Virus record (IMG/VR): IMGVR_UViG_3300037258_000549
Location: 64,001-90,776 of that record
DNA: 26,776 nucleotides
Direction: 5' to 3' (one strand)
Source: a virus
Taxonomy: Duplodnaviria > Heunggongvirae > Uroviricota > Caudoviricetes
The position numbers were made by a program, and so were the translations under genes. The stretch's first letter is position 1, and each line of letters opens with the position of its first letter. Of the stretch, positions 224-25,834 are shown one piece after another. The notes beneath the pieces were generated by a model. It did no database searches and was not told the origin of the DNA. It saw nothing but the letters and a program-made list of their open reading frames with translations.

Positions 224-1318
224 TCAGCTCACCAGCGCAACCTCGCGTGCCAGCACCGCGGCCTTCGCCTTCATCGGCTCGGCGCGCAGCAGTGAGCGGT
301 TCAGCTTGCTTTCCCAGCTGCGGCTCGTACGCACATGATCTAGGTACTCACCAGCCGCTTGCAGCATCCCGTAGGCGGTGCCGCGCACCCCGCTGCCCTC
401 GACCGTCGGCCCCTCCAGGAAGCCCAGCACCGCGGCGCGGGCCTCGGCGATGTTTTTCGCCACCCGGTCTGAGACCAGGCCGTCCGGCGGGGACGGGATG
501 AACGCGTCCACGAACCGTGCTTCCTGCTGGACGCTGACCTTGATGCCGAGCAAGTCGGTCATCGCTGCCACGTACTCCTGCGTCTGGGTGCACGCGTACA
601 TCAGCGCCTCGCGTGCTTCGCCCATCCGGTCATGCCAGTCGCTGCGGTGCGAGAACGAGTACACGAGCCCGGTACGCTCGCCCTCAGCTTCGGCAGTCGA
701 ATAAGTATTCGCGCAAACGATCCTAACCGTGGTCAGCCGGGCGGCGCAGGAGGCCTGGCCGTCGTGCGAGCTGGTGAGCCCGAGGAACGGGAAGGTCAGT
801 GAGCCGTCGCCGGGCAGCTGCACCGGCTCGTTGATCCGGGCCAGCATCCACACCTTGCGGCCCCCGGCCAGGCTGCCGCCGGTTTCCAGTTGCACCGTGC
901 CCGGCTCGGCTTCCAGGATGGAGTCGATGATCTCGCCGAACGCGGAGTTGGGAATGATGTTGTAACTGCCCCGCTGGTAAGACAGTGTCGCCCGGGTGTC
1001 ACTGCGCGCGATGCGCCGGAACTCCCGGTCGGTACGCAGTGACTTCTCGTACAGGTCACTGAGCGCCTGGGCGGTCTCCTCGACTGTCTTCAGCGGTGAC
1101 TCGCGGACCAGTGTCAGGATCTGCTCGCGGACCTCCCCGACGGTCAGCAGCCGCTCGGCGGCCGGCAGTGCGATCGGGTCCCAGTCCAGTCCGGCCAGCA
1201 CGCGCGCCGCGGCAAAGGACTCCGGGTAGTCCGCGGTTACCGTCGTGCGGTCACCGGTCCGCGGCTTGTGCCAGGGCATTTCCCGGACACTGAACATTCT
1301 TTCGACGTCATCACTCAT
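224..1318 (-). CDS. DUF932-family (TIGR03299-like) phage/plasmid protein
   Basis: 364 aa with hallmark motifs MFSVREMPWH, AGLDW, ETGGSLAGGRKVW, SHDG, TTVRIVCANT and GTAYGMLQAAGEYLDH. Confidence 0.85.
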   Translation of the reverse strand: MSDDVERMFSVREMPWHKPRTGDRTTVTADYPESFAAARVLAGLDWDPIALPAAERLLTVGEVREQILTLVRESPLKTVEETAQALSDLYEKSLRTDREFRRIARSDTRATLSYQRGSYNIIPNSAFGEIIDSILEAEPGTVQLETGGSLAGGRKVWMLARINEPVQLPGDGSLTFPFLGLTSSHDGQASCAARLTTVRIVCANTYSTAEAEGERTGLVYSFSHRSDWHDRMGEAREALMYACTQTQEYVAAMTDLLGIKVSVQQEARFVDAFIPSPPDGLVSDRVAKNIAEARAAVLGFLEGPTVEGSGVRGTAYGMLQAAGEYLDHVRTSRSWESKLNRSLLRAEPMKAKAAVLAREVALVS

Positions 1319-2889: not shown

Positions 2890-3141
2890 CTAGCACCTGT
2901 TCTCCAGTGCCTGATTATGAGCGCGCACAGCTTCCGCAGCCAGCGCCGGCGTCTTGAAGACCGCAATCTCAAAGTCGTACTTGTAGGACGCTGGTTCATT
3001 AAGCGCCGCGTAGACGTTGCACGGTTCCTGGTGCCCCTGCCGCCAGGGCAGTTCACACAGCTTCGCCGCGGCGGCCTGCAATGAGCCGTACGCGCGCTGT
3101 AGGTTAACGCGGGCGACTGACAGAGCGGTAGCATCCATCAC
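2890..3141 (-). CDS. Small phage hypothetical protein
   Basis: 83 aa; start overlaps the glycosyltransferase stop (GTGATG). The WRQG...VY...IAVFKTPALAAEAVRAHN pattern resembles small actinophage proteins. Confidence 0.65.
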   Translation of the reverse strand: MMDATALSVARVNLQRAYGSLQAAAAKLCELPWRQGHQEPCNVYAALNEPASYKYDFEIAVFKTPALAAEAVRAHNQALENRC

Positions 3142-4222
3142 GAGGTGAGGCTCTCCAAGGCTCGTAGCAAGCGCTTAGCGTTGTTAGCAAAAGTTCTATC
3201 AGCAATCGCAGCCTGCGCCAGCCGACCCGCTTCTTCGCGTTTATCACTGTTTTGCAACCACCAGCGAAGCTGCTCGGACGCGTCTTCGGGAGAAGTGAAC
3301 GTGGGCAACATGGACAGCACCCGGTCGCCTTCTTCCCGTTGATCCCTAAGGAAGGGCAGGCGGCAAGCGGCCATCTCCACCTCACGCGGCCCCATGGCGA
3401 CGGCGACGTCCCCGGCGTGCGTGTCCTCGGCCTCGCGCCGGTAGAAGTTGATGCCCATCTTCGTCTGGCGGTACAGCTCCGCCGTTTCGGTGTTATCTAC
3501 GCAGTCCGCGTCGGTCAGCCCGCTGCCGATGTACGGCACCAGCGGGGATGCCTCGGGGAGCTTACCCCACTCGTTCCCGGCGATCAGCACGTCGATATCG
3601 CTCAGGTCCAGCGCCTCGAAGAAGTCGATCCGGGACTTGAACGCGGTGCCGATGAACGTCAAGTCGATCAACTTAGCGGACGGCGGCCCGGTCCGCGGGT
3701 GGTGCACGGCCGGGCGGTAGCAGTGCGGGACGTACAGCGCCGGCGTGCCCTGCTGGTCGTAAAGAGGCAGGTTAACCGGGTCATTCAGCAGGCACAGGTC
3801 GGCGAACTGCGCGCGCAGCAGCTGAATATCCTCTTGATAGGGCGATTCCGTATTCAGCATGACGATTTTGTGCCCGCGCTTGCGGATGACTTCCATCAGC
3901 CCGGCGGTAGCAAAAAACCCGCTGACAAAAACTACCACACTTGGCCAAAACGTATAAAGCGCATGGGAGATCCCTTGCATAGCAAGGGTGAACGCGCCCT
4001 CCTGGGTCAGTGCCTGCTTGACGATCGGGAGGTCATACTCGTCTTTAGTCTGGGTGTCCATCAGGGCACGACTGTAAAAGACAAGTCGTAAAAGCCGATC
4101 ATTGAAGTTAAACGAGGCAACTTCTACTCCAGTTTCCCGGAGTCCCTCTTCCCAGCCTTTATAAACATCGTGAACTGAAAAATCGGGCGTAAAGGCCCCG
4201 GGTGAACCAACAAGATCCGCAC
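3138..4222 (-). CDS. CgeB-like (Glyco_trans_1_2) glycosyltransferase, frameshifted near its 5' end
   Basis: The body has LTFIGTAF..R, MGINFYR, MGPREVEMAAC and QLRWWL...REEAG...RTFANNAKRLL. A natural N-terminus MRILLVHPGP (GTG at 4222, SD GGAAGGGG) is in a different frame from DFSVHDVY... The ORF-track start at 4370 overlaps the HNH gene and is probably false. Confidence 0.75.
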
Positions 4223-4335
4223 GGGCGAACCACCCCCTTCCGATTACACATTCGCAAACAAAATGGTATGCTTTTAACGACCCGGTCATGCCGTTCAGAG
4301 GCAGCGACCGGGCCTGATCGCATAGAAGTGCGACT

Positions 4336-4917
4336 ATGACTGATCCTACAGAACGCTGGCGCCCTGTCAAAAACTTCGAAGGTTTCTACGAGGTTAGCAA
4401 CCTTGGCCGGGTACGGAGCGTTGATCGTACAGTAACCTCCCGTAACCGCTGGGGGCCGATAGAAAAGCACCTGCGCGGCAAGATTCTCTCTCAGGCAACA
4501 GGCAGTTACGGTTATCTAGTGGTCACCATGTCTCGCGACGGCAGGGAACGGCCTTACCGGGTGCATCTGCTTGTCGGGGAAGCTTTCCTTGGACCGCGCC
4601 CGCCCGGACACGATATCCGGCACGGTCCGAGAGGGCGCCAGGCCAACGCAGCGGCAGATCTCTGTTACGGGACGCGGGCGGAAAACGAGCAGGACAAGAT
4701 TCGCGATGGTACATTCCGACACGGTGGCGACGGCCGGGCCGGCGAGGCTGCGAACCACGTTAAGCTGACGTGGGCCATCGCCCGGGAGATCCGGCGCAGG
4801 CGCGCGGCTGGGGAACGGCCTAGTGCTCTAGCTCGGGAGTTTAATACTACTCCTTCAACGGTCTACTACATAGCTAGTAACCGGCAGTGGAAAGCAGAAC
4901 ATGATCCCCAGGGTTAG
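4336..4917 (+). CDS. NUMOD4-HNH homing endonuclease with C-terminal HTH-like domain
   Basis: ERWRPVKNFEGFYEVSNLGRVRS (NUMOD4), VHLLVGEAFLG...IRH...LCYGTRAENEQD (HNH), then IRRRRAAGERPSALAREF. Confidence 0.9.
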   Translation: MTDPTERWRPVKNFEGFYEVSNLGRVRSVDRTVTSRNRWGPIEKHLRGKILSQATGSYGYLVVTMSRDGRERPYRVHLLVGEAFLGPRPPGHDIRHGPRGRQANAAADLCYGTRAENEQDKIRDGTFRHGGDGRAGEAANHVKLTWAIAREIRRRRAAGERPSALAREFNTTPSTVYYIASNRQWKAEHDPQG

Positions 4918-4935
4918 TCACTCAAGGTAGACCGT

Positions 4936-4989
4936 TAGACGCCAGCATACGTTAAGCAGTAAGATGGAAGTCCGCCTGACCAGCGACAC
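4936..4989 (+). promoter_or_regulatory. Conserved 30-nt element, copy 2; putative promoter reading into array 1
   Basis: TAGACG-N18-TAAGAT followed by GGAAGTCCGCCTGACCAGCGACAC; 27/30 identical to 175-204 (-). Confidence 0.5.
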
Positions 4990-6262
4990 GCACCGTACCG
5001 ACGAGCCCATCCGCATCGCACCGGCCCATCCCGACGAGCCTACCCGCTTCGGTTCTGGCCATACCGACGAACCCAGCCGTTCCCGGACAGACCGCCCCGC
5101 ACCGACTACCCCTTCCTTCCCCGGTCACCCCCCGCCGACGCACCAGACCGTATCCCTCCTTTCCGCCTCAGGCCGACGAGCCACCCCGTCACGATTCAAG
5201 CTACGCCGACCACCCTGACCAGCTCACACCGACGAGTCATCCCATACCGGTTCGTCCCACGCCGACCACCCGACGCAACCCGCCCCGCCCCATGCCGACG
5301 AGCCATCCCATGCCCAGCCCCACCCAGCCCCACCGACGGACCTCACCAATCCCCACCTGACCCCGCCAAGCCACGCTGACGCATCAGCTCATACCTGCCC
5401 AGCCCGACCCGACGACCCGAACCGCGTCATGCCCGCCCGAGCCACCCTGACGAGCCACCCCATCCCGCTCCTTTCCGCATCGACAAGCTGGCCCACTACC
5501 CGAGCCATTACGTCTCCACCCGCGCCGACATGCCACCCCATCCCATACCGGCCCTGCCCAGGTGACTATCCGTCCCAACACCTCCCGCTCCCGCCCAGGC
5601 TGACGCACCAGGCCAATTCACGTCACCCCGGCCCTCGCTGACATGCCTGCCCCATCCCACACCGGCCCTGCTCAAGCCGACGAGCCGCATCGTACCTCGA
5701 CGAGCCATGCCATGCCCGTCCTCCCCCTGCCGACTACCCGAGCCATTACGTCCCGACTCCACCCCTGTCGACTACCCGAGCCATTACGTCCCGACTCCAC
5801 CCCTGCCGACTACCCGAGCCATTACATCCCGACTCCACCCCTGTCGACTACCCGAGCCATTACGTCCCGACTCCACCCCTGCCGACTACCCGAGCCATTA
5901 CATCCCGACTCCATCCGCGCCGACATGCCTACCCATCCCACACCGGCCCTGCTCAAGCCGACGAGCCGCATCGTACCCAGCCGCCCCTGCCCGCTTTGAC
6001 GACCCACGCCCAGCCAACCCCACCCACGCCGACTAGCCACCTCTTCTCTTACCAGCCCTGTTCGTGCCGACAAGCCATGCCTAGCCGCTCCCTGCCGACT
6101 ACCCAGCCCCGCCCTACCCGACCCTGCGCAGCCCAAGCCGACTACCCACGCCGACGTGCCATCCCATCCCCTGCCGCTACTTCCCATCCCGACGACCCAC
6201 GCTAACCCTGCCCGTCCCGGTCCGACTACCCGTCTCCATCCCTCCCGTCCCGCGCCGACTAG
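4981..6262 (+). repeat. Array 1: degenerate (NNNCC)n-GAC repeat array, C-rich on +
   Basis: Splitting at CCGAC/CTGAC/TCGAC gives units of 33, 33, 38, 33, 38, 33, 23, 33, ... 38, 43, 33, 38, 33 nt, e.g. gagcc catcc gcatc gcacc ggccc atccc gac. Roughly 35 units; no convincing protein in any frame. Confidence 0.9.
5730..5919 (+). repeat. Near-perfect 38-bp x5 tandem repeat inside array 1
   Basis: (C/T)CGACTACCCGAGCCATTAC(G/A)TCCCGACTCCACCCCTG starting at 5730, 5768, 5806, 5844 and 5882; the fifth copy diverges at its end. Confidence 0.95.
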
Positions 6263-6555
6263 CCCCACCAGAGGTTGCTAAGCGAATCATCTAGTTTGCC
6301 CCCGATGCCATGTCGTGCCCGGACATCGGGGGCTGTTGGCTGCCCTGTGAATGTCTCTAGCACGAGGCTGCCGACCGTTCGTGCCCGCACCCGGCCATAC
6401 TTGTAGAGGCGCACAAACCGGTAGCCAGCCGGGTTCACCTGCGGGGTGAGTAGCCCGCCGCGAGTTGCCGCCCGGCCGAGCGAGTAGATGTTCCCCCGGT
6501 CAGACGCCTCGTAAAACCCGGCGTAACCAGGGATCGGCTGCCAGTCCTCCTCCAT
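6259..6555 (-). pseudogene. Short or truncated NUMOD4-HNH endonuclease
   Basis: EDWQPIPGYAGFYEASDRGNIYS, VGSLVLETFTG...RH...SNLWWG then stop. It lacks the T-x2-EN-x2-D segment seen in the paralogs at 4336 and 18736. Confidence 0.7.
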
Positions 6556-6612
6556 ACGTCCAGGATGAGGTACTTAACAGGCTAGGTGTGATTTACTGAC
6601 AGTGAGTATCAT

Positions 6613-6636
6613 GCCGCGGCCTTCGCCGGAGCCGGC
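6613..6636 (+). promoter_or_regulatory. Bulged hairpin motif, copy A
   Basis: GCC-GC-GGC-CTTCGCCGGA-GCC-GGC; shares CGNGGCC...GGAGCCGG with 7606-7629 and 15436-15465. Confidence 0.4.
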
Positions 6637-6684
6637 TCAGCTTCAGCCTTAACGGAGCAGCTGGTGACCGCGGAAACGCCTAGT

Positions 6685-7551
6685 TCAGCGGCTTTTCGCC
6701 GCACGGGCGAGCGCGGCACGCCGAGCCAGGTCCTGCTGCCGCGACACCACTTTCAGGTGCGCAGGATTTACGCAGTCGCCTCGCCCGCAAGTCTGCTGTG
6801 CGATGTAGCCATCGGGAACAGGTCCTTTAGCGAGCAGCCAGGCGACTTCCCGGGCCATGTGCGTACTGCCCTGCCACCAAGCTTTCGCACTCCCGCTACC
6901 GTCAATGAACGCTTCCCAGAGCCAGCAGCCTCGCAGCCCGGCGGACTTATCGACTTTGGCCCAGAAACGCAACTCCGCTTTTTCTGCCCAACGCGCGCGT
7001 TGGTTTTTGCCGTTTTCAGTCCGGCGCCCCGGTGGCGCACGACGCAAGTTTTCAGCCAGCGTGACTACTTCCAGGTGCGCCGGGTTAACGCAGTGCCGGT
7101 GGCGACAGCCACGTTCTCGCACGTGGTCAACCTGAAAGAGATCCGAGAGCGGTCCGATAGTGAGCTGGTAGGCGAACCGGTGAGCCAGGAATTTCCGGCC
7201 GTACGCGTAAAAAGCTCCGTAACCCTGACCGATTTTCCCAGCCGTCCACAGCCAGCAGCCCTCCGGCCCGGCCGACTTATCGACTTTGGCCCAGAAGCGG
7301 TCTTCGACGGACATCGCACGCTGCGGCTCAGTCAGCTCCGTCGAACCTCGCGTGTACCAACGCAGGTAATGCCTTGCGCACAGTCCCCGCGCTTCGTGCG
7401 GTTCGTCGCAGTCCGGCACCGTACAGCCTTCCGGTGCCGGAGCCTTCGGTGGCAAGGTGCCATGTCGGTAGGCGTACACGTAATGCGTGCCGCACAGTCC
7501 GCGCGCTTTGACCGGGCGCGTGCAGTCCGGCTCGGTACAGCTCTCGCTCAT
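6685..7551 (-). CDS. HNH endonuclease with two N-terminal Zn fingers and a duplicated HNH domain
   Basis: Two C-x4-C-x9-C-x2-H motifs and two RFWAKVDKS..GCWLW...CVNPAHL modules. The first has AHR, DH and EN; the second has ARE, QQ and QD at those positions. Confidence 0.9.
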   Translation of the reverse strand: MSESCTEPDCTRPVKARGLCGTHYVYAYRHGTLPPKAPAPEGCTVPDCDEPHEARGLCARHYLRWYTRGSTELTEPQRAMSVEDRFWAKVDKSAGPEGCWLWTAGKIGQGYGAFYAYGRKFLAHRFAYQLTIGPLSDLFQVDHVRERGCRHRHCVNPAHLEVVTLAENLRRAPPGRRTENGKNQRARWAEKAELRFWAKVDKSAGLRGCWLWEAFIDGSGSAKAWWQGSTHMAREVAWLLAKGPVPDGYIAQQTCGRGDCVNPAHLKVVSRQQDLARRAALARAAKSR

Positions 7552-7557
7552 GCCTGT

Positions 7558-7587
7558 AGCCTATGTAGTCAATCCGTCAGAAGTCAA
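7558..7587 (-). promoter_or_regulatory. Leaderless promoter for the double-HNH gene
   Basis: Minus strand TTGACT-N18-TAGGCT-N6-ATG(7551). Overlaps an 11-bp direct repeat AGTCAATCCGT at 7567 and 7582. Confidence 0.6.
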
Positions 7588-7605
7588 TCCGTTAACCGCA
7601 TGTCA

Positions 7606-7629
7606 CCCGTGGCCTTCAGTGGAGCCGGG
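7606..7629 (+). promoter_or_regulatory. Bulged hairpin motif, copy B, in the tail-tube leader
   Basis: CCC-GT-GGC-CTTCAGTGGA-GCC-GGG, ending 32 nt before the tail tube start. Confidence 0.45.
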
Positions 7630-7661
7630 CATTCCTCAGTTAACAGAAGGAGTGTTCGAAA

Positions 7662-8114
7662 TTGAGCCGTATCCATGGAAGAAATGGCATCGCTTACGTT
7701 GCGGTGACCGGTAACGGGACGGGGCTAACGACCGACGTAGCATCACCGATGGCGTTTTTGAGTGACTGGAGTATCAACTTCACCGTGGCGAAGGTGGACG
7801 TCACGGCGATGGGTGACCAGAACCTTATCTGGGTGGCCGGGCTGCCGGATGCCTCCGGTGACTTCTCCGGCTTTTACGACACTGCTACCGCGCAGACCTA
7901 TGTTGCGGCGACAGACGGCTTGCCGCGGTACTTCTACTTGTACCCGTCTACGCTGGCAGCGCAAGGGTCAGCCCCGGGTCAGTATTTCTTCGGGACCATT
8001 CTTCCTGACTATGCGCTGGCCGGCGGTGTGTCTGCCTCGGTCAGCCTGAAATCCACCTGGAACGCATCGAGTCGCATCCAAAGATACCCTGCAGTGGGTA
8101 TTGCTGGCACCTGA
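7662..8114 (+). CDS. Major tail (tube) protein
   Basis: 150 aa, TTG start with SD AGAAGGAG. RIHGRNG...WSINFT...VDVTAMGD...VAGLPDASGDFSGFYD pattern; sits upstream of chaperones and TMP. Confidence 0.85.
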   Translation: MSRIHGRNGIAYVAVTGNGTGLTTDVASPMAFLSDWSINFTVAKVDVTAMGDQNLIWVAGLPDASGDFSGFYDTATAQTYVAATDGLPRYFYLYPSTLAAQGSAPGQYFFGTILPDYALAGGVSASVSLKSTWNASSRIQRYPAVGIAGT

Positions 8115-15496: not shown

Positions 15497-18400
15497 GTGG
15501 TTACGACAGCGTACGACAGCCTCGTCATTGGCGAGGAAATCGAGGTCTGGGGGCCGCCCGGCGGGATCGCGTCGGTTAACCCGATGTGCCCCGGCGCCGT
15601 TTTCCGGGTGCAGCCGCCGTTCAGCCTGGACGCCCCGCAGCCCACCACCGACTTCGTCGCCACGCTGATCGTCGATGGCGAGAAGCCGTACGGTGACCGG
15701 GCCTCTGACCGGACCATCACCTTGAACGTGCTGATCGTGGCGCCGGACTACCGGACGCTGGCCGGGGCGCGGGAGCTGCTGCTGCAGACGATCGACCAGC
15801 CGCACTGGCCGCTGACCTGGACCCGGGCCTCGGGGGCGGACCCGGGATCGCTCCCGCTGGTGCTGGACTGCTTCCGCGCCCAGCCGTCGGTCATCCCGCT
15901 GGGCGGCCCGGAAGACTACCGGATTCAGGGGCGGCTGCAGGTTGAGGCGCAGGTCACCATCAAGTTTGAGGCACTCCCCTACGGGCGCAGCGACACCCAG
16001 CAGCAGGTCGCGTTCGCCGCCCCGATCGCCTCGCTGAACGCCCCCGCGCCGCCGCCGGCCCCGGTCGTGCTGGACGCCTTCTCGACGATCAACAGCCCGC
16101 AGTGCGTGCAGTCGGCGCTGTGCATCGTCGGCCCGAACACCTGTTACTGGGACCCGTTTTTTCCGCCGTTCAACCGCGATGACGGCCAGAACTGCCCGCT
16201 GACCTACAGTGCCATGCTGAGCAACCCAGTCAGCCTGACCGGGATGACCGGGCTGTCGATGTGGATGGGTCTCGGGTCCCGGTACTACTTCAACCACCAC
16301 CCGCACGGCCAGACCCGGCTGACGATCAGCTTCAGCCTGACGGACACTAACGGTTACACGCTGACCTGGACCGACCGCAACCGGTGGATGCCGGTATCAC
16401 CGGACCCGCAGAACCCGGTGTTCACCCGGGTGACCGTGCGCATCCCGCAAAACAGTAGCCAGTTCAATTACGGGTCGGTCGCCGGGTACTCGCTGACCAT
16501 CCTCAACCGGGCGCCGCGCTGGGACACCCCGGGCGGGGAGCTGCGCTGGACGGTCGCCTACCTGGATGCGCTCACCGCGTACCCGTCCTCGACGGTCATC
16601 GCCACCCCGTCGCCGCGGGGCAACGTCTACCTGCTGCAAGGGGTGGTCGGCACGCACCGGGCGCCGGTGTCGATGCAGTTCCAGGGGGCGCTGACGCCGG
16701 GGACGCCGACCACGGTGACCAGTGCCGGGCCGGGTACCTACACCGTCCCGTCTAACACCGTCTACCTGAAGGTGGAAGCGACCGGTGGTGGCGGCGCCGG
16801 GGCCACCCAGACGGTAGCCGGGGACGGCGGGGGCGGCGGCGGCGGCGAGTACGCGGCCGAGCCCATTTTCCCGGCCGCGGTCGGCGCGGTTATCCAGTAC
16901 GCCGTCGGGGCTGGTGACACCGCTGGAACGTCGGCTACCTTCGGGCGCACCACTACGTTCGGGCCGGCCCCGGGCGGAACCCTGGCCGTCACTGCCAACG
17001 GCGGGCAGTCAGCGGCGCAGAACTCGATTACCGGCGGGACCGGCGGGTCGGGGTCGGCGAACACGGTGCACTACTCCGGCGGCCCCGGGCGGACCGCGTC
17101 GGGGTCGGTCGGCGGCGGCGGCGGCAGCTCCGGCGGCAACGCCAGTGCCGGGCTGGCCCCGACCGGTACCGCGGCCACCGTGTTCACCTCGGCCGGGGCG
17201 AACACCTGGACCTGCCCGGCCGGGGTCACCCAGGTGTACGCCGAGTGCTGGGCCGGCGGCGGGTCCGGCGGTACCGGTTCCAGCTTTAACAACGGCGGCG
17301 GCGGTTCTGGCGGCGAGTACGCGGCGGCGAACGTCGGCGTTACGCCCGGCAATGTCTACAACTACACGGTCGGCGCGGGCGGCGCCACCGTTACCGGCAG
17401 CGGCCTGACCGGGAACAGCGGGTCCAACTCGGTTTTCACCGGGAATGCCGCTGCGGTTACCGCGCACGGCGGGCACCCTGGTACCGGTTCCAACAACAAT
17501 ACCGGCGCGGCTGGCGGGTCCGGCAGTACAAACACCGTGCACTACACCGGCGGAGTCGGCGGCGGCGGCAACCCGTACTCCGGCGGTGGCGGCTCCTCGG
17601 CCGGCCCGGCCGCTACCGGTAACCCGGGTAACGGCTACGGTAACGCGGGCACCGCCCCGAGCGGCGGCGGCTCCGGTGGTGCGGGAACCGGCAGTCACAG
17701 CGGGAACGGCACGGCCGGCTCAGCGCCGGGCGGCGGCGGCGGCGGTACCTATTACACCAGCACCACGTCCGGTGCGGGCGCGGCCGGGCAGGTCCGGCTG
17801 ACTTACCCGGGCGGCGCGCCGACCAACAACGGCGGCGTCGCGGTGACCGGCGGCGGCGCGGGCGGGGCAGGCGGCGGGTCTTCGAACACGGCCGGGTCGG
17901 CGGGCAGCGCGCCCGGTGGCGGCGGCGGCGGCGCGGACTCCTCCGGGTCTACTGAGGCGGGCGGCGCGGGCGGCACCGGCAAGCTGATCATCACCCCGTA
18001 CTCCACCGGCCAGTTCAAGACGCTGGTCGTGCACCGGCCCGGGAGGTGGTCGCCGACTCAGCTCAACCCGTTTGTCCCGGTCGGCGCCGGGCTGGTCGCC
18101 CCGGGAACCACTGAGTTTACTGTTCCGTCCCTCGTGTCTGGGGTAAATGCGCAGTTCAACGGAACTTATACGATCGTACTGACTAATTACAGTTTCAACA
18201 GCCCCAGCTCATCGCGGACGATTTCGGTGACCGTCAAGCAGTACGAGGCATCCGGCGGCGCGTCCTACTCCGTCACCACGACGCCGGTCACCATCATTCC
18301 GAACACGCAGGCTGTCAACGGAATTCTGGTTGTCGGCACGCTGACCCTGCCGCTGAAGGCGGTAGCCAGCGATAACACGCTCGGCTACTACACCGTGCTA

Positions 18401-18724
18401 GTCACCGACAGTAACGCCAGTGACCGCTGGTACGACTGCCTGTTCCTGGACGTCCAGGGGCAGACGGCGATCGTGAATGAGCCGTCCACCGGCTACTACA
18501 ACTACTACTTTGACCAGCCTGACCCGTGCCACGACTTGGGGCTCTACCTGGGCAGCCAGGTCGGCCGGCCGCAAGCTGTCTCGGTGATGGACGCGATGAC
18601 GGTCAGCGGCGGCCCGCTCACCGTCGAGCCCGGCCTTAACACTCTTCTAGCGTACGCGCAAGAGGGTGCACCTTCCATTTCGGTAACATATTTCCCAGCT
18701 TGGTACGCAGAAAGGCTAGAGTGA
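15497..18724 (+). CDS. Evolved distal-tail (Dit)-like protein with large glycine-rich insertion
   Basis: Directly after the TMP. N-terminus ...DRTITLNVLIVA... and C-terminus LTVEPGLNTLLAY...SVTYFPAWY are Dit-like. The centre has Gly-rich modules (TWTCPAGVTQVYAECWAGGG). Confidence 0.7.
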   Translation: MVTTAYDSLVIGEEIEVWGPPGGIASVNPMCPGAVFRVQPPFSLDAPQPTTDFVATLIVDGEKPYGDRASDRTITLNVLIVAPDYRTLAGARELLLQTIDQPHWPLTWTRASGADPGSLPLVLDCFRAQPSVIPLGGPEDYRIQGRLQVEAQVTIKFEALPYGRSDTQQQVAFAAPIASLNAPAPPPAPVVLDAFSTINSPQCVQSALCIVGPNTCYWDPFFPPFNRDDGQNCPLTYSAMLSNPVSLTGMTGLSMWMGLGSRYYFNHHPHGQTRLTISFSLTDTNGYTLTWTDRNRWMPVSPDPQNPVFTRVTVRIPQNSSQFNYGSVAGYSLTILNRAPRWDTPGGELRWTVAYLDALTAYPSSTVIATPSPRGNVYLLQGVVGTHRAPVSMQFQGALTPGTPTTVTSAGPGTYTVPSNTVYLKVEATGGGGAGATQTVAGDGGGGGGGEYAAEPIFPAAVGAVIQYAVGAGDTAGTSATFGRTTTFGPAPGGTLAVTANGGQSAAQNSITGGTGGSGSANTVHYSGGPGRTASGSVGGGGGSSGGNASAGLAPTGTAATVFTSAGANTWTCPAGVTQVYAECWAGGGSGGTGSSFNNGGGGSGGEYAAANVGVTPGNVYNYTVGAGGATVTGSGLTGNSGSNSVFTGNAAAVTAHGGHPGTGSNNNTGAAGGSGSTNTVHYTGGVGGGGNPYSGGGGSSAGPAATGNPGNGYGNAGTAPSGGGSGGAGTGSHSGNGTAGSAPGGGGGGTYYTSTTSGAGAAGQVRLTYPGGAPTNNGGVAVTGGGAGGAGGGSSNTAGSAGSAPGGGGGGADSSGSTEAGGAGGTGKLIITPYSTGQFKTLVVHRPGRWSPTQLNPFVPVGAGLVAPGTTEFTVPSLVSGVNAQFNGTYTIVLTNYSFNSPSSSRTISVTVKQYEASGGASYSVTTTPVTIIPNTQAVNGILVVGTLTLPLKAVASDNTLGYYTVLVTDSNASDRWYDCLFLDVQGQTAIVNEPSTGYYNYYFDQPDPCHDLGLYLGSQVGRPQAVSVMDAMTVSGGPLTVEPGLNTLLAYAQEGAPSISVTYFPAWYAERLE

Positions 18725-18735
18725 TGAGAAGTTCT

Positions 18736-19266
18736 TCACTCTGCGTAAAACCCCGTACGCCTGATAACTCGCAGGATCGTCGGGTGCGTAGTTCCGTACG
18801 CTTTAGCCAGCTGACGGAGCGATTCGCCAGGATACCGGGCGCGGATCTCGTCAGATTGCTCAGGGGTAAAACAAGGTACACCACTAGTTCCACCATCGCG
18901 GCCTCGATCTTGATTATTCTCTCGGCGAGTGCCGTAACAGAGATTCCAAAGTGCCGATTCGGCCTTCCCCGCGGGGCCATGCCGAACCTCCTGGCCTTTA
19001 GGGCATGGTCCAGCGAACGCTTCCATTACCAATTTGTAAACTTTCTTAGGCCTCGTTACACCGTCCTTGCTAAGGCTTGCTTGGGGGTAACCATGGTTAC
19101 CTGGTGTGATCACTTGCTGGAGGATGCGCCCCTGGTATACACGAGGTCCGGTCGACGTCTCTACAATCCGGGTCAGGCTGCGTACCCGGCCGAGATCCGA
19201 CACTTCGTACAGGCCCTCGAAGTCTTTGACGGGCAGCCAGCGCTCGGTATGATCGTTGGTAGCCAC
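18736..19266 (-). CDS. NUMOD4-HNH homing endonuclease inserted antisense in the tail operon
   Basis: ERWLPVKDFEGLYEVSDLGRVRS, LVMEAFAG...VRH...NLCYGTRRENNQD and an HTH-like tail. Probable GTG start at 19266 after GAGGGAG; alternative start at 19338. Confidence 0.88.
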   Translation of the reverse strand: MATNDHTERWLPVKDFEGLYEVSDLGRVRSLTRIVETSTGPRVYQGRILQQVITPGNHGYPQASLSKDGVTRPKKVYKLVMEAFAGPCPKGQEVRHGPAGKAESALWNLCYGTRRENNQDRGRDGGTSGVPCFTPEQSDEIRARYPGESLRQLAKAYGTTHPTILRVIRRTGFYAE

Positions 19267-19274
19267 GGGGATCT

Positions 19275-19345
19275 CCCTCAAGGTCGTCGGGTTAGGCCCG
19301 ATCACTGCCCTCAAGGTCGTCGGGTTAGGCCCGGTCACTGCCCTC
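19275..19345. repeat. 33-bp tandem duplication upstream of the HNH gene
   Basis: CCCTCAAGGTCGTCGGGTTAGGCCCG(A/G)TCACTG at 19275 and 19308, plus a partial third copy. Confidence 0.95.
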
Positions 19346-19385
19346 GATGGCGTGACCGGGCTGGTCTTACCCTAGCGGGTGCGCC

Positions 19386-19721
19386 ATGACGGCCCCGCGG
19401 CTAGACCTGGGTGCCGATCACTGGCTTGAGTACGTTAGCTGGGCGCCGGACCGGGCACTCAACCCGCAGTACGCGGGCTTGCCGGACGTTGAACGGTGGG
19501 GCGCGGTCGTTGGCCACCCGCTCCGGCCGGGTGATGAGCAGTGTGCCTGGCGCGGCGCGTGCACCGGCAGTATCACCTTTGACGGGCTGGCCCAGCGGCA
19601 ACTGAGTGACGGGCCGTTCTGGACGGTTGAGGCGTGGGAGCCGTTGACGCTCTCCCCGTCATTGCTCTGTCATTGCCAGGATCACGGCTTCATCCGCTCC
19701 GGGCAGTGGGTGAACAGCTGA
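19386..19721 (+). CDS. Cys/His protein resembling DUF6527
   Basis: C-terminal WEPLTLSPSLLCHCQDHGFIRSGQW; stop overlaps the next start (TGATG). Family assignment is from memory of the motif. Confidence 0.5.
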   Translation: MTAPRLDLGADHWLEYVSWAPDRALNPQYAGLPDVERWGAVVGHPLRPGDEQCAWRGACTGSITFDGLAQRQLSDGPFWTVEAWEPLTLSPSLLCHCQDHGFIRSGQWVNS

Positions 19722-20885: not shown

Positions 20886-21665
20886 ATGCGCTGGTTCAGC
20901 ACCCTGACGGCGGCGCTGCTGGCGGAGGCGGCCGGGCACTTCCTGTCGCTCGGCTGGGGCTTCCTGACGCTCATCCTGGCGTTCGTGGTGGTCGCCGTCC
21001 GGATGAGCACTCTGGTAGCGGCGACCAACTCGAAGGCGTACGCCACCGAGGCGCGGCTCAACGCGCACGTGACCGCGACGGCTCCGGCGGTCAACTTCGT
21101 GGCGAACGGCGGCACCGTCGGCGGCACCGTGTTCGTATCCGGCGATCATCACGTCACCGGGAACTCGGCGGTCAGCGGTACCCAGACGATCACCGGGCAG
21201 CTCAACGGGTCCACCATCTCGATTTCCGCCGGGATGACCGACTACGGGCACACCACGCACGGCAGCCTCAGCGTTGACAGCAACGTGACGGTCGGCGGCA
21301 CTCACACGGTCACCGGGCAGATCAACGGGTCCACCGTGTCGATTTCCGCCGGGATGACTGACTACGGGCACACCACGCACGGCAACGCCAGCATCGACAG
21401 CGACCTGGCGGTCAGCGGGACGCTCAACGGCGGCGGCGGCAGCACGGTGGAATCAACCGGGATTCACTCCTCCGGCACCATCCTGGCCGACGGCCAGATC
21501 AACGCGACCGGCAACATGAGCGCAGGCAACTTCGGCGGGCCGTACCAGGGCGGTCAGGGGGCGGTTACCGTTCCTAGCTTGACTAGTCCTAGTACGAACG
21601 AGGTACAGCTTTTCAACGGAGTCAACGGGTGCATTTCCCGGCTGAACTCGTCGGGCCTCATCTAG
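20886..21665 (+). CDS. Hydrophobic N-terminus plus beta-helix-like spike/fibre protein
   Basis: Strong SD (GAAGGAG). Hydrophobic N-terminal segment, V-x-G-rich repeats, a 40-aa duplication at 21186 and 21306, and C-terminal CISRLNSSGLI resembling fibre trimerisation ends. Confidence 0.6.
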   Translation: MRWFSTLTAALLAEAAGHFLSLGWGFLTLILAFVVVAVRMSTLVAATNSKAYATEARLNAHVTATAPAVNFVANGGTVGGTVFVSGDHHVTGNSAVSGTQTITGQLNGSTISISAGMTDYGHTTHGSLSVDSNVTVGGTHTVTGQINGSTVSISAGMTDYGHTTHGNASIDSDLAVSGTLNGGGGSTVESTGIHSSGTILADGQINATGNMSAGNFGGPYQGGQGAVTVPSLTSPSTNEVQLFNGVNGCISRLNSSGLI

Positions 21666-24311: not shown

Positions 24312-25117
24312 GTTACATCCACCAGCCGCAGCCCGGCGTGGTCATCGCCGTGGTCGGCAGCGGCCTGGCCGGCTACCTGGTCGGCGTCGGGCAAGCTATC
24401 GCCGGGAAGCCGTCGCTGGGCACCCATGTCGTGGGAGTCACCCACCAGGACGCCAAAGGCCGGTGGATGGGCATTGAAGGGCGTCCCGGCGGCGTCGGAC
24501 TGGTCGACTGCACGCCGTACCTGGCTGACTCCCGGGCTCGCAGCAACTACCTGCAGCCTAAGCCGGACGATCACGGGCAGCTGGCCGCGTTCCTGGCCGG
24601 GGCCGCCAAGTCCCTCGGCATCGGTTACGACTGGGCAGGCATCGCCGGGGATATCGCGGACACGGTGGCACCGGACCTGTCGGCGGACATCGACCACCTG
24701 TGGCGCTGGCCAACATACAAGGGCCAGCTGCCCGGCCACGTCGTCTGCAGTTCACTATTCGCGGCTCTTTACGACCTGCCTCAAGTGGGCTGGCAACACC
24801 CTGACCTGGGGAAAGAACGGATGTGCCTGCCCGAAGCATGGTGGAACTGGTGCGACGGGGAACTCTGGGCTTCTTTAGGTAGACTGGGTGATACACGCTG
24901 CATCAGGGCAGCTAGGCAAACCCTCCCCCTCCGGCCGACTGTCCAGGCCTGGCCCAAACCGCTCCGCCCACGCCGACTAACCACGTCAGTCCCCAACCCC
25001 CCCGCCCCATGTCGACCTGCCAGACCTGGTCCCAACGGCCCGCTCCACCTCCGCCCACCCCGACTGGCCAACCCGGCCCATCCCCCTCCCGCCCTGACCT
25101 GCCAGACCCGGTCCTAA
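24308..25117 (+). CDS. Permuted NlpC/P60 (YiiX/YebB-like) papain-fold enzyme; ORF reads on into array 2
   Basis: His precedes Cys: THVVGV...IEGRPGGV...GIGYDW...VVCSSLFAALY. The domain ends near 24875; the remainder is array-derived Pro-rich sequence. Confidence 0.7.
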   Translation: MSYIHQPQPGVVIAVVGSGLAGYLVGVGQAIAGKPSLGTHVVGVTHQDAKGRWMGIEGRPGGVGLVDCTPYLADSRARSNYLQPKPDDHGQLAAFLAGAAKSLGIGYDWAGIAGDIADTVAPDLSADIDHLWRWPTYKGQLPGHVVCSSLFAALYDLPQVGWQHPDLGKERMCLPEAWWNWCDGELWASLGRLGDTRCIRAARQTLPLRPTVQAWPKPLRPRRLTTSVPNPPAPCRPARPGPNGPLHLRPPRLANPAHPPPALTCQTRS

Positions 25118-25628
25118 CGGCCCGCTTCGTTCCTGCCTAGCCCAGCCGACTATTCAAGCCATCCCGTCCCGCTCCGTGCCGACTACTCCAGCCAGGCCAT
25201 CCCGAGCCCGGCCCGGCCGACTAACCTAACCACCACCCGCCCAGCCCGTGCCGACTACACGCACCATGCCAATCCGGTCCCGCCCGTACTGACCTGCCCG
25301 ACCAAAACTGCCCTCCCCGCACCGACCAGCCACTCCGCGGCACGCCACCCCGAGTCCGCCCGTCCCTAGCCGACTTGCCAGCACATCCCTGCCCGCGCTG
25401 ACGGTCCGATCCCTGCCCTGCCATCCCCTGCCGACAGACCATCCCTGCCCGGTCCAGGCCTTACCGACGCCCCGCGCCCTCACGCTCCGGGTCAACCCGC
25501 TCCGGTCCGGCCCTCACCGACATACCTAGCCTTACCTGCGCTGACGGTCCGATCCCTGCCCTGCCTAGCCGCTCCGACTGACCAGCCCCTACCGCCACGA
25601 CCCCTTCCGACTAGCCAGCTCCCGCCGA
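24930..25628 (+). repeat. Array 2: degenerate (NNNCC)n-GAC repeat array, same grammar and strand as array 1
   Basis: Units of 38, 39, 48, 34, 52, 33, 38, 34, 38, 33, 48, 28, 33, 33, 53, 24, 33, 33 and 18 nt, e.g. tattc aagcc atccc gtccc gctcc gtgcc gac. Confidence 0.9.
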
Positions 25629-25648
25629 CCCGGCCCCGGGGAAAGGAG

Positions 25649-25713
25649 AAGCCCCGCTCTCCCTGCGCAGCCCCTCATGAACGAGGCAGCCGGGAAGAGC
25701 GGGGCTTTTACTT
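25649..25713. terminator. Probable bidirectional intrinsic terminator with a large structured loop
   Basis: AAGCCCCGCTCT (25649-25660) pairs with AGAGCGGGGCTT (25696-25707), then TTACTTGTT on + and a pyrimidine run on -. It lies between array 2 and convergent genes. Confidence 0.7.
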
Positions 25714-25714
25714 G

Positions 25715-25834
25715 TTAGGCCTGAACGTTCCAGAAGTTCGTCTCAGCGGCCTTCGCCTCGGCAAGCTCCCACTGCTTCGGTCCGACGTGCGCCGGGGCGC
25801 TGCCACCATTGTCGCTGCATCGAGTGTCGTTCAC
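25715..25834 (-). CDS. 39-aa small protein MNDTRCSDNGGSAPAHVGPKQWELAEAKAAETNFWNVQA
   Basis: GTG at 25834 preceded by AAGGAAAGG at 7 nt spacing; it is the 3' part of the track ORF 25715..26017. Confidence 0.55.
   Translation of the reverse strand: MNDTRCSDNGGSAPAHVGPKQWELAEAKAAETNFWNVQA

What the first reader, a model, noticed from the sequence alone, without database searches (positions are those of the whole stretch)
4981..6262. 1.3-kb non-coding array with a strict pentamer-plus-GAC grammar (array 1)
Seen: the + strand is a chain of NNNCC-like pentamers reset by a GAC triplet, so units end in CCGAC and most measure 5n+3 nt (23, 33, 38, 43). The N positions vary between units, but the phase and the CC are kept. 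Units of 38 or 43 nt break any reading frame, so the constraint is on the DNA or RNA, not a protein. It is not a CRISPR array (no fixed repeat with unique spacers, no cas genes) and not a microsatellite. Inference: the minus strand is (GG-NNN)n and could form two-tier G-quadruplexes or R-loops. The 5-nt period is about half a helical turn, suiting a polymerising DNA-binding protein. Alternatively it may be a long repetitive ncRNA processed at CCGAC into 33-38 nt pieces. I know of no named element matching it.
Basis: partly seen in the sequence, partly recalled or inferred. Interest (0 to 1): 0.88.

Follow-up and report, generated by a model that had tools for sequence, protein, structure and literature searches.

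The report
Phage VIPR guide-RNA array, C-rich type
The 1.3-kb five-base-rhythm tract is real and is most likely one of nine guide-RNA arrays of this soil phage's VIPR system, a CRISPR-related RNA-guided DNA-silencing system first described in 2026 preprints, so it is a striking but already explained kind of element.

Summary
Window 4981-6262 is a non-coding, C-rich tract of (NN-yCC) pentamers reset by GAC. CC autocorrelation at lag 5 has z = 7.9. Units of 5n+3 nt make up 64%, against 19% in shuffles.

It is one of nine such arrays, about 7.2 kb or 8% of a 90.8-kb soil phage genome. The same genome encodes a 240-aa stand-alone Cas7-like protein outside the window. Among 2.3 million AlphaFold clusters, its best fold matches include all five founding Vipr proteins named in the VIPR discovery preprint. 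In 44 of 61 related phage and actinomycete prophage loci, a C-rich tract abuts the start of this gene.

The tract is therefore a VIPR guide (vrRNA) array. One Vipr protomer binds each pentamer, and the two variable bases read DNA.

The kind is in print (bioRxiv 10.64898/2026.04.26.720920 and .720927). This scan had already reached the same reading on this genome and on other DNA.

Three features differ from the studied type II:
- The RNA is probably C-rich (yCC/NN, not GGY/NN).
- The guides are short, GAC-delimited and have no tail.
- The arrays are dispersed, each with its own promoter-like box.

Not shown: the transcribed strand, processing at GAC, and any target. My target searches found nothing.

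The parts
4960..4965 (+). -10-like box TAAGAT (TANNNT), 16 nt before the array. The following GATGG-AGTCCGCC leader is shared with genome array 7.
   Evidence: Read from the sequence. Alignment with the leader of genome array 7 shows the shared GATGG.AGTCCGCC block. This is a promoter-like match only; no transcript data exist.
4981..6262 (+). Array 1 (the finding). It holds about 45 GAC-closed units of 4-8 (NN-yCC) pentamers and is a putative multi-guide vrRNA array, read as C-rich RNA from the + strand.
   Evidence: statistics; no structure beyond shuffles; no similarity to other arrays of the genome.
5724..5924 (+). Tandem block of 5.3 copies of one 38-nt unit (7 in-phase pentamers plus GAC) in two alternating variants. 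It looks like a recent duplication of a guide. A 55-nt duplicate lies at 5506-5560 and 5901-5955.
   Evidence: TRF: period 38, 5.3 copies, 93% matches; period 76, 3.1 copies. The repeat finder families D1, D2 and D6. Contigs of the source run break here.
6298..6333 (+). G+C-rich hairpin 36 nt after the last unit, a possible 3' end of the array transcript. Its U-tract (CUGUU) is weak.
   Evidence: Fold of 6263-6350: -35 kcal/mol, z = -2.59. The consensus terminator scan did not call it.
24880..24885 (+). -10-like box TAGACT of array 2, preceded by GG (GnTAnnnT form).
   Evidence: The same box-to-hairpin arrangement stands in front of six arrays of the genome.
24897..24912 (+). Leader hairpin GCTGC-ATCAGG-GCAGC of array 2, followed by the conserved TAGGCAAACC.
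   Evidence: Pair counts on six leaders: 73% of cells paired, 2 pairs changed on both sides, 0 of 500 shuffles reach the paired share. Two rows are misaligned by one column.
24930..25628 (+). Array 2 of the window. It has the same grammar and the same strand but different unit sequences.
25648..25708 (+). Strong intrinsic-terminator-like hairpin with a U4 tract, about 20 nt after the last unit of array 2.
   Evidence: Fold of 25626-25715: -49.9 kcal/mol, z = -4.78, 0 of 200 shuffles fold as well.

Best explanation
The tract is a guide-RNA (vrRNA) array of the phage's own VIPR system.

Shown here:
- The tract follows a strict 5-nt grammar of two variable bases plus a constant yCC, closed every 4-10 pentamers by GAC.
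- It is one of nine such arrays in the genome.
- The genome encodes a stand-alone Cas7-like RAMP of the Vipr family.
- This gene and such arrays travel together in relatives.

Taken from the preprints on type II VIPR:
- Vipr protomers polymerise on the RNA, one per pentamer.
- They bury the constant triplet and present the two variable bases.
- Those bases pair with double-stranded DNA, skipping every third base.
- Binding silences transcription of competing mobile elements.

Inferred for this locus:
- The + strand is transcribed, probably from a TANNNT box at 4960-4965, giving a C-rich RNA.
- Each GAC breaks the 5-nt register and so bounds one guide, by cleavage or by ending the filament.
- The roughly 45 guides of this array, and about 200 in the genome, target other phages or prophages of an actinomycete host.
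For: 1. Grammar and statistics.

2. Nine arrays with one grammar and different unit sequences.

3. A Vipr gene in the same genome.
- P0002 (genome 2258-2980, 240 aa) has a C-terminal G-rich loop.
- Its AlphaFold model has pLDDT 84.7.
- Foldseek against the PDB gives 108 hits at E <= 1e-3. The 50 listed are all chains of CRISPR effector complexes (type III Csm/Cmr, type VII, Cas7-11), such as Csm3.
- Foldseek against AFDB clusters puts A0A2D6XG06, A0A1F4YLN4, X1U2U4, A0A661D0E2 and A0A0F9A1L0 at ranks 1, 2, 3, 6 and 8. These are the five founding Vipr proteins named in the discovery preprint's methods.

4. Co-occurrence in relatives.
- P0002 has 197 homologues.
- In 44 of 61 usable viral and actinomycete loci, a C-rich tract abuts the vipr start. 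A stricter test for the 5-nt CC rhythm finds a periodic tract within 300 nt of vipr in 23 of 55 viral loci.
- Units of 38 and 33 nt dominate there too.

5. Fast turnover. The vipr and neighbouring genes align at 72-81% nucleotide identity with L003 and L004, but the arrays do not align. This is expected of a guide repertoire.

6. Strand.
- In relatives, the array fills the gap between the stop of the upstream co-directional gene and the ribosome-binding site plus start of vipr. It is C-rich on the sense strand, and there is no room for a divergent promoter.
- In this genome, six arrays have a GnTAnnnT box 8-11 nt before a 5' hairpin on the C-rich strand.
- A canonical terminator (14-bp stem plus U5, z = -5.2) separates vipr from the array downstream of it.
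- Array 2 of the window ends at a terminator in the C-rich direction.

7. Mechanism as published.
Against: - No RNA data exist for this phage, so neither transcription nor its strand is shown.
- Every published vrRNA that I could read about is G-rich (GGY/NN, or NNNGG and similar) and carries a conserved 3' tail. These units have no tail, only GAC.
- Read on the minus strand, the array is (GGs-NN)n, which is nearer the published form.
- Units of 6-7 pentamers give only 12-14 read bases. This is low specificity for a host genome of several megabases.
- An untranslated, C-rich, G-poor, unstructured RNA is a classic Rho loading site (textbook knowledge). A 1.3-kb transcript of this kind would need protection.
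- The -10-like box of this particular array is weak evidence. The array also lacks the hairpin leader seen at six others.
Confidence: 0.85

Rival explanations
1. It is the same VIPR system, but the guides are transcribed from the minus strand as G-rich RNA, GUC(GGs-NN)n. This would match the published GGY/NN and NNNGG repeats. What I call a 5' leader hairpin would then be a 3' tail of the whole array.
For: - The published vrRNAs are G-rich, have a structured 3' tail, and include an NNNGG variant.
- On the G-rich strand, the order 'constant triplet then NN' is the same as in GGY/NN.
- In this genome, the two arrays flanking vipr are G-rich on the vipr strand.
Against: - In 44 of 61 relatives, the array is C-rich on the vipr sense strand and is wedged between two co-directional genes. 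There is no space for an antisense promoter.
- A U5 terminator lies between vipr and the downstream array.
- GnTAnnnT boxes stand at a fixed 8-11 nt from the hairpin on the C-rich strand.
- The third constant position on the G strand is G 48%, C 23%, A 18% and T 12%. It is not a pyrimidine.
Confidence: 0.12
2. It is a DNA-level element that does not depend on RNA. Candidates are G-quadruplex or i-motif DNA, or a lattice of 5-bp-phased sites for a DNA-binding protein.
For: - The minus strand is (GG-NNN)n, which formally fits a two-tier G4 pattern.
- Strand asymmetry is strong.
Against: - This idea does not explain the constant linkage to a Cas7-like RNA-binding protein.
- It does not explain the promoter-like boxes and terminators that frame the arrays.
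- It does not explain the hypervariable dinucleotides and the GAC resets, or the fast turnover between close relatives.
Confidence: 0.02
3. It is a protein-coding, proline-rich repeat gene read with frameshifts, or a decayed one.
For: - A 5-nt rhythm gives the same pentapeptide pattern in all three frames.
- Stops are rare on the C-rich strand, and open stretches reach 187 codons.
Against: - Every + frame has four stops, and 38- and 43-nt units shift the frame.
- Relatives with 80% identical neighbouring genes share no alignable array.
- The triplet composition is not codon-like in any frame.
Confidence: 0.01

Closest known systems
VIPR systems (Vipr + vrRNA + vap), studied as type II in Escherichia phage SUSP1 and a Pseudomonas fulva prophage. 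Sources: bioRxiv 10.64898/2026.04.26.720920, .720927 and 10.64898/2026.10.15.759431.
   Same: - It is phage-borne.
- It has a stand-alone minimal Cas7-like RAMP, whose fold matches the founding Vipr proteins.
- It has a small conserved partner gene.
- Non-coding arrays of 5-nt units sit beside the gene, each unit with three constant and two hypervariable positions.
- There is no cas1/cas2 and no CRISPR repeat.
   Different: - The constant triplet is yCC on the strand that appears to be transcribed, not GGY.
- The units have 4-10 pentamers, not 9-16.
- The units follow each other without a structured 3' tail and are separated only by GAC.
- Nine arrays, about 7.2 kb in all, are scattered over the genome up to 66 kb or more from vipr. 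Most have their own promoter-like box.
- In most relatives, the array lies inside the operon between the partner gene and vipr.
- No target was found.
Non-canonical VIPR arrays: the NNNGG, YNNNG and NNNNG repeats and the 'staggered arrays' of the discovery preprint, and the 21 non-GGY clusters of the Evo-PIN preprint (10.64898/2026.10.21.760802).
   Same: - They have a 5-nt period with a constant part other than GGY, next to a Vipr-like fold.
[quoted passage not shown] This resembles the tail-less GAC-joined units here.
   Different: - I could not see the figures or tables, so I cannot tell whether this actinomycete clade, a CC-type motif or the GAC reset is among them.
- The motifs named in the text are GAC, CAC, WGT and TGH.
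Class 1 CRISPR effector backbones (the Csm3/Cmr4/Cas7 filament on a crRNA).
   Same: - The protein has a Cas7-type RRM fold with a G-rich loop.
- The protein oligomerises along a guide with a fixed nucleotide step.
   Different: - The step is 5 nt, not 6.
- There is no repeat-spacer array, no adaptation genes and no large subunit.
- The guides are written in a gapped code.

Membership tests
VIPR system | A stand-alone Vipr protein: a minimal RAMP (RRM core, G-loop, thumb) outside any CRISPR-Cas locus | tested here: met
   P0002 lies at genome 2258-2980. Its AF2 model has pLDDT 84.7. The PDB hits listed are CRISPR effector-complex chains such as Csm3. The five founding Vipr AFDB entries of the preprint rank 1, 2, 3, 6 and 8 of 2.3 million clusters. 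There is no Pfam RAMP hit and no CRISPR context.
VIPR system | Tandem 5-nt repeats with a constant trinucleotide alternating with a hypervariable dinucleotide | tested here: met
   In C-strand pentamers, positions 1-2 are variable, position 3 is C in 48%, position 4 is C in 80% and position 5 is C in 96%. Periodicity z = 7.9. The constant part is yCC (GGs on the other strand), not the canonical GGY.
VIPR system | Arrays lie in the intergenic DNA flanking vipr | tested here: met
   Arrays flank the two-gene cassette in this genome. In 44 of 61 relatives a C-rich tract abuts the vipr start, and in 5 more a tract lies just downstream. The array of the finding itself is 66 kb from vipr, like the published 'solo' vrRNAs.
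VIPR system | An accessory vap gene next to vipr | tested here: inconclusive
   A 236-aa gene (P0001) lies directly upstream. tblastn finds weak homologues (24-31% identity; 71% in L003 and L004) upstream on the same strand in 23 of 67 loci. It has no Pfam, PHROG or Atlas match. I cannot say whether it is one of vap1-6.
VIPR system | A conserved structured 3' tail after each repeat tract (type II vrRNA) | tested here: not met
   The units are joined by GAC only. The only conserved hairpin lies once per array, at the end that looks like the 5' end. The preprint itself describes other architectures, including staggered arrays. This feature therefore defines type II, not VIPR as a whole.
VIPR system | The RNA is expressed and bound by Vipr | not testable with these tools
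   Only DNA runs of soil metagenomes hold this sequence.
VIPR system | Guides match natural DNA targets by the 1-nt skip rule (NNx), mostly in codon register | tested here: inconclusive
   96 guides gave no excess over shuffled guides for skips of 0-3 (two read bases) or 0-2 (three read bases) in 0.73-0.83 Mb of own and related phage DNA. Two guides of 9-10 pentamers had no exact match in IMG/VR. The databases and rules tested are too narrow to count against targeting.

The most novel reading that the evidence does not exclude
This actinomycete-phage clade of Vipr reads a C-rich scaffold. Its guide RNAs would be (NN-yCC)n, closed by GAC, with no tail and only 4-10 units long. They would be made either from inside the vap-vipr operon or, as here, from nine dispersed promoter-bearing arrays that together encode about 200 guides (8% of the genome).

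If true, it would show that the Vipr pocket can be re-specified from G to C. It would also show that a 3-nt register break can replace a structured handle as the guide boundary, and that a single phage can carry a guide repertoire far larger than the four vrRNAs of SUSP1.
Probability: 0.4. Interest if true: 0.55.

Novelty: new member of a known kind. Interest (0 to 1): 0.33.

Why it matters
VIPR has so far been characterised in two proteobacterial type II systems. This locus and its roughly 200 relatives extend it to phages and prophages of soil actinomycetes (Streptomyces, Nocardiopsis, Actinomadura and others).

The layout differs from the studied systems. Guides are tail-less and GAC-delimited, the RNA is probably C-rich, and the guide load is very large and scattered across the genome.

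If the strand and boundary inferences hold, the clade is a natural experiment on two questions: how Vipr recognises its scaffold, and how guides are delimited.

For annotation, the practical lesson is that long, strand-skewed, ORF-free tracts with CCGAC in actinophage genomes are guide arrays, not junk or assembly errors.

Tried and rejected
- **DNA similarity.** Megablast and blastn of the window and of the array against 50,697 phage records found no match.
- **Rfam.** A scan of the window at E <= 1 gave nothing relevant.
- **Promoter and terminator scans.** The E. coli-type consensus scans around both arrays were uninformative.
- **Local target search.** I tested 96 guides against the own genome (arrays masked) plus 58-70 related loci. 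Rules tested were two read bases with skips of 0-3 and three read bases with skips of 0-2. None differed from guides with shuffled pentamer order.
- **Target search in IMG/VR.** Two long guides under the NNx rule gave 0 exact matches.
- **Codon-likeness.** The variable triplets fit sense, antisense and shifted frames about equally, so they identify no target strand.
- **Sequencing runs.** No RNA holder is listed. Two soil-metagenome DNA runs hold the stretch, and one of them may be its source. Their contigs cover only 5769-7700 of the 4300-7700 laid.
- **Synteny at this position.** A search for relatives of the neighbouring 333-aa gene, to see whether the array is syntenic in other phages, found none in IMG/VR.
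- **Partner protein P0001.** Pfam, PHROGs, PDB sequences and the ESM Atlas gave nothing usable.
- **Rho sponge or decoy.** I considered the C-rich RNA as a sponge or decoy for the Rho termination factor, and dropped it as a primary function. It explains neither the 5-nt phase nor the Vipr linkage.
- **HNH cassette.** I considered a mobile cassette bounded by the two flanking HNH genes. They are only 32% identical.

Full report
**What is there**

Window 4981-6262 is 50% C and 18% G on the + strand. It can be written almost throughout as NNNCC pentamers closed by a GAC triplet.

Against 1000 dinucleotide-preserving shuffles:
- The CC-CC autocorrelation at lag 5 has z = 7.9, and at lag 10 z = 5.6.
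- The share of GAC-closed units measuring 5n+3 is 64%, against 19 +/- 7%. No shuffle exceeds 46%.
- CCGAC occurs 35 times, against 11.6 +/- 2.9.

Other properties:
- All six frames carry stops.
- The tract folds no better than shuffles on either strand.
- The only true sequence repeats inside it are a block of five tandem 38-nt copies (5724-5924) and one 55-nt duplicate.
- Each 38-nt copy is itself seven in-phase pentamers plus GAC.

**It is one of nine arrays**

The window is the right end of a 90,776-bp virus record from a soil metagenome. Scanning the whole record finds nine tracts with the same grammar but unrelated unit sequences. Six are C-rich on the minus strand and three on the plus strand. 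Together they cover about 7.2 kb.

Over 116 in-phase units, pentamer position 5 is C in 96%, position 4 is C in 80%, position 3 is C in 48%, and positions 1-2 are variable. Units of 33 and 38 nt dominate. The unit is therefore two hypervariable bases plus a constant yCC.

**The partner protein**

Notes from earlier work in this scan, on this genome and on other DNA, pointed to a Cas7-like neighbour and to the name VIPR. I tested this myself.

- Between the two leftmost arrays lie two genes, P0001 (236 aa) and P0002 (240 aa). P0002 ends in a glycine-rich loop.
- P0002 has 197 mostly unannotated homologues.
- A model built on 35 of them has pLDDT 84.7.
- Against the PDB, the model gives 108 hits at E <= 1e-3. 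The 50 listed are all chains of CRISPR effector complexes (type III Csm/Cmr, type VII, Cas7-11), such as Csm3.
- Against 2.3 million AlphaFold clusters, ranks 1, 2, 3, 6 and 8 are A0A2D6XG06, A0A1F4YLN4, X1U2U4, A0A661D0E2 and A0A0F9A1L0.
- These are the five proteins that the VIPR discovery preprint names as its founding hits.

P0002 is therefore a Vipr-family protein by fold.

**What VIPR is, from the preprints**

- Vipr is a minimal RAMP encoded mostly by phages.
- Its vrRNAs are tandem 5-nt repeats with a constant GGY and a variable NN.
- One protomer binds each repeat in a helical filament and buries the constant bases.
- The NN bases pair with double-stranded DNA, skipping every third base.
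- Binding silences transcription of competing phages and satellites.
- Seven types, alternative repeats (NNNGG and others), 'staggered' arrays and solo vrRNAs are reported.

**Linkage in relatives**

I fetched 58 viral and 12 bacterial loci that encode P0002 relatives. The bacterial loci are almost all from actinomycetes, including Nocardiopsis, Streptomyces, Actinomadura and Streptosporangium.

- In 44 of 61 usable loci, a C-rich tract abuts the vipr start. In 5 more, a tract lies just downstream.
- A stricter detector of the 5-nt CC rhythm found a periodic tract within 300 nt of vipr in 23 of 55 viral loci. All of these were C-rich on the vipr sense strand, and 38- and 33-nt units dominated.
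- A weak homologue of P0001 lies upstream on the same strand in at least 23 loci.
- With the closest relatives (vipr 80-83% identical), the genes align at 72-81% nucleotide identity. The arrays do not align. The rule is conserved and the content turns over, as expected of guides.

**Which strand is the RNA?**

No RNA data exist, so this is inference. Four observations favour the C-rich strand:

1. In most relatives, the array fills the space from the stop codon of the upstream co-directional gene to the ribosome-binding site of vipr. There is no room for an antisense promoter.
2. In this genome, six arrays are preceded on the C-rich strand by a GnTAnnnT box 8-11 nt before a small covarying hairpin. 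The closest relative has the same leader. The array of the finding and one other share a second leader with a TANNNT box.
3. A canonical terminator (14-bp stem plus U5, z = -5.2) stands between the vipr stop and the array downstream of it. That array is therefore not read through as G-rich RNA.
4. Array 2 of the window ends at a strong U-tract terminator in the C-rich direction, and array 1 ends near a weaker hairpin.

Against this:
- Every vrRNA described in the text I could read is G-rich and tailed.
- On the minus strand, the repeat has the published order (constant triplet, then NN).

I put about 0.75 on C-rich RNA, given that the arrays are vrRNA arrays.

**What GAC does**

This is inferred only. 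A 3-nt insert breaks the 5-nt register. It would therefore end a Vipr filament or mark a cleavage site.

The bases around it are biased: the last pentamer is often GCGCC or GCACC, and the first is often TACCC, GAGCC or AAGCC. This fits a boundary signal. The same CCGAC-TNCCC junction is used across the family.

**Targets**

None was found. The tests are listed under Tried and rejected. With 12-14 read bases per guide, an unknown host and a small searchable database, this neither supports nor weakens guidance.

**Verdict**

The finding is a real and well-described element whose kind has been in print since April 2026. This scan had already reached the same reading on this genome and on others.

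I file it as a new member of a known kind. Three variant features deserve a test: a C-rich scaffold, tail-less GAC-delimited guides, and nine dispersed arrays.

Noticed in passing
window 4336-4917 (+) and 6259-6555 (-): Two NUMOD4/HNH homing-endonuclease genes flank array 1 in convergent orientation. The second is only 98 aa and stops exactly at the array border, before the end of the HNH motif, so it may be truncated. They are 32% identical, so they are not a recent duplication. A third copy lies at window 19072-19245 (-).
   Followed up: partly
genome 2258-2980 and 1463-2173 (outside the window; L001): This is the vipr gene and its conserved upstream partner of unknown fold. A textbook terminator at L001:3006-3045 separates vipr from the next array.
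   Followed up: yes
window 5724-5924: One 38-nt guide is amplified five times in two alternating variants (76-nt period). This suggests that arrays grow by tandem duplication followed by divergence.
   Followed up: partly
window 21169-21418 and 19275-19345: Tandem repeats of 120 nt (2.1 copies, 86% matches) and 33 nt (2.2 copies, 97% matches) overlap listed + strand ORFs (20886-21665 and 18700-19389) downstream of the tape-measure ORF. They are probably repeat domains of tail proteins.
   Followed up: no
window 15497-18724: A 1075-aa ORF after the 1850-aa tape-measure ORF has a 77-78% G+C stretch full of CGG/GGC triplet runs (about 16800-18000). It looks like a glycine-rich minor tail protein.
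   Followed up: no
window 224-1318 (-) and 3138-4370 (-): A DUF932-family gene and a glycosyltransferase-like gene lie on the minus strand, left of the array.
   Followed up: no
all nine arrays: If transcribed as inferred, these are long, untranslated, C-rich, G-poor, unstructured RNAs, which is the textbook profile of a Rho loading site. In relatives, the array sits inside the operon upstream of vipr. Coating by Vipr might be needed for read-through, which would be a possible feedback loop. This is pure inference.
   Followed up: no
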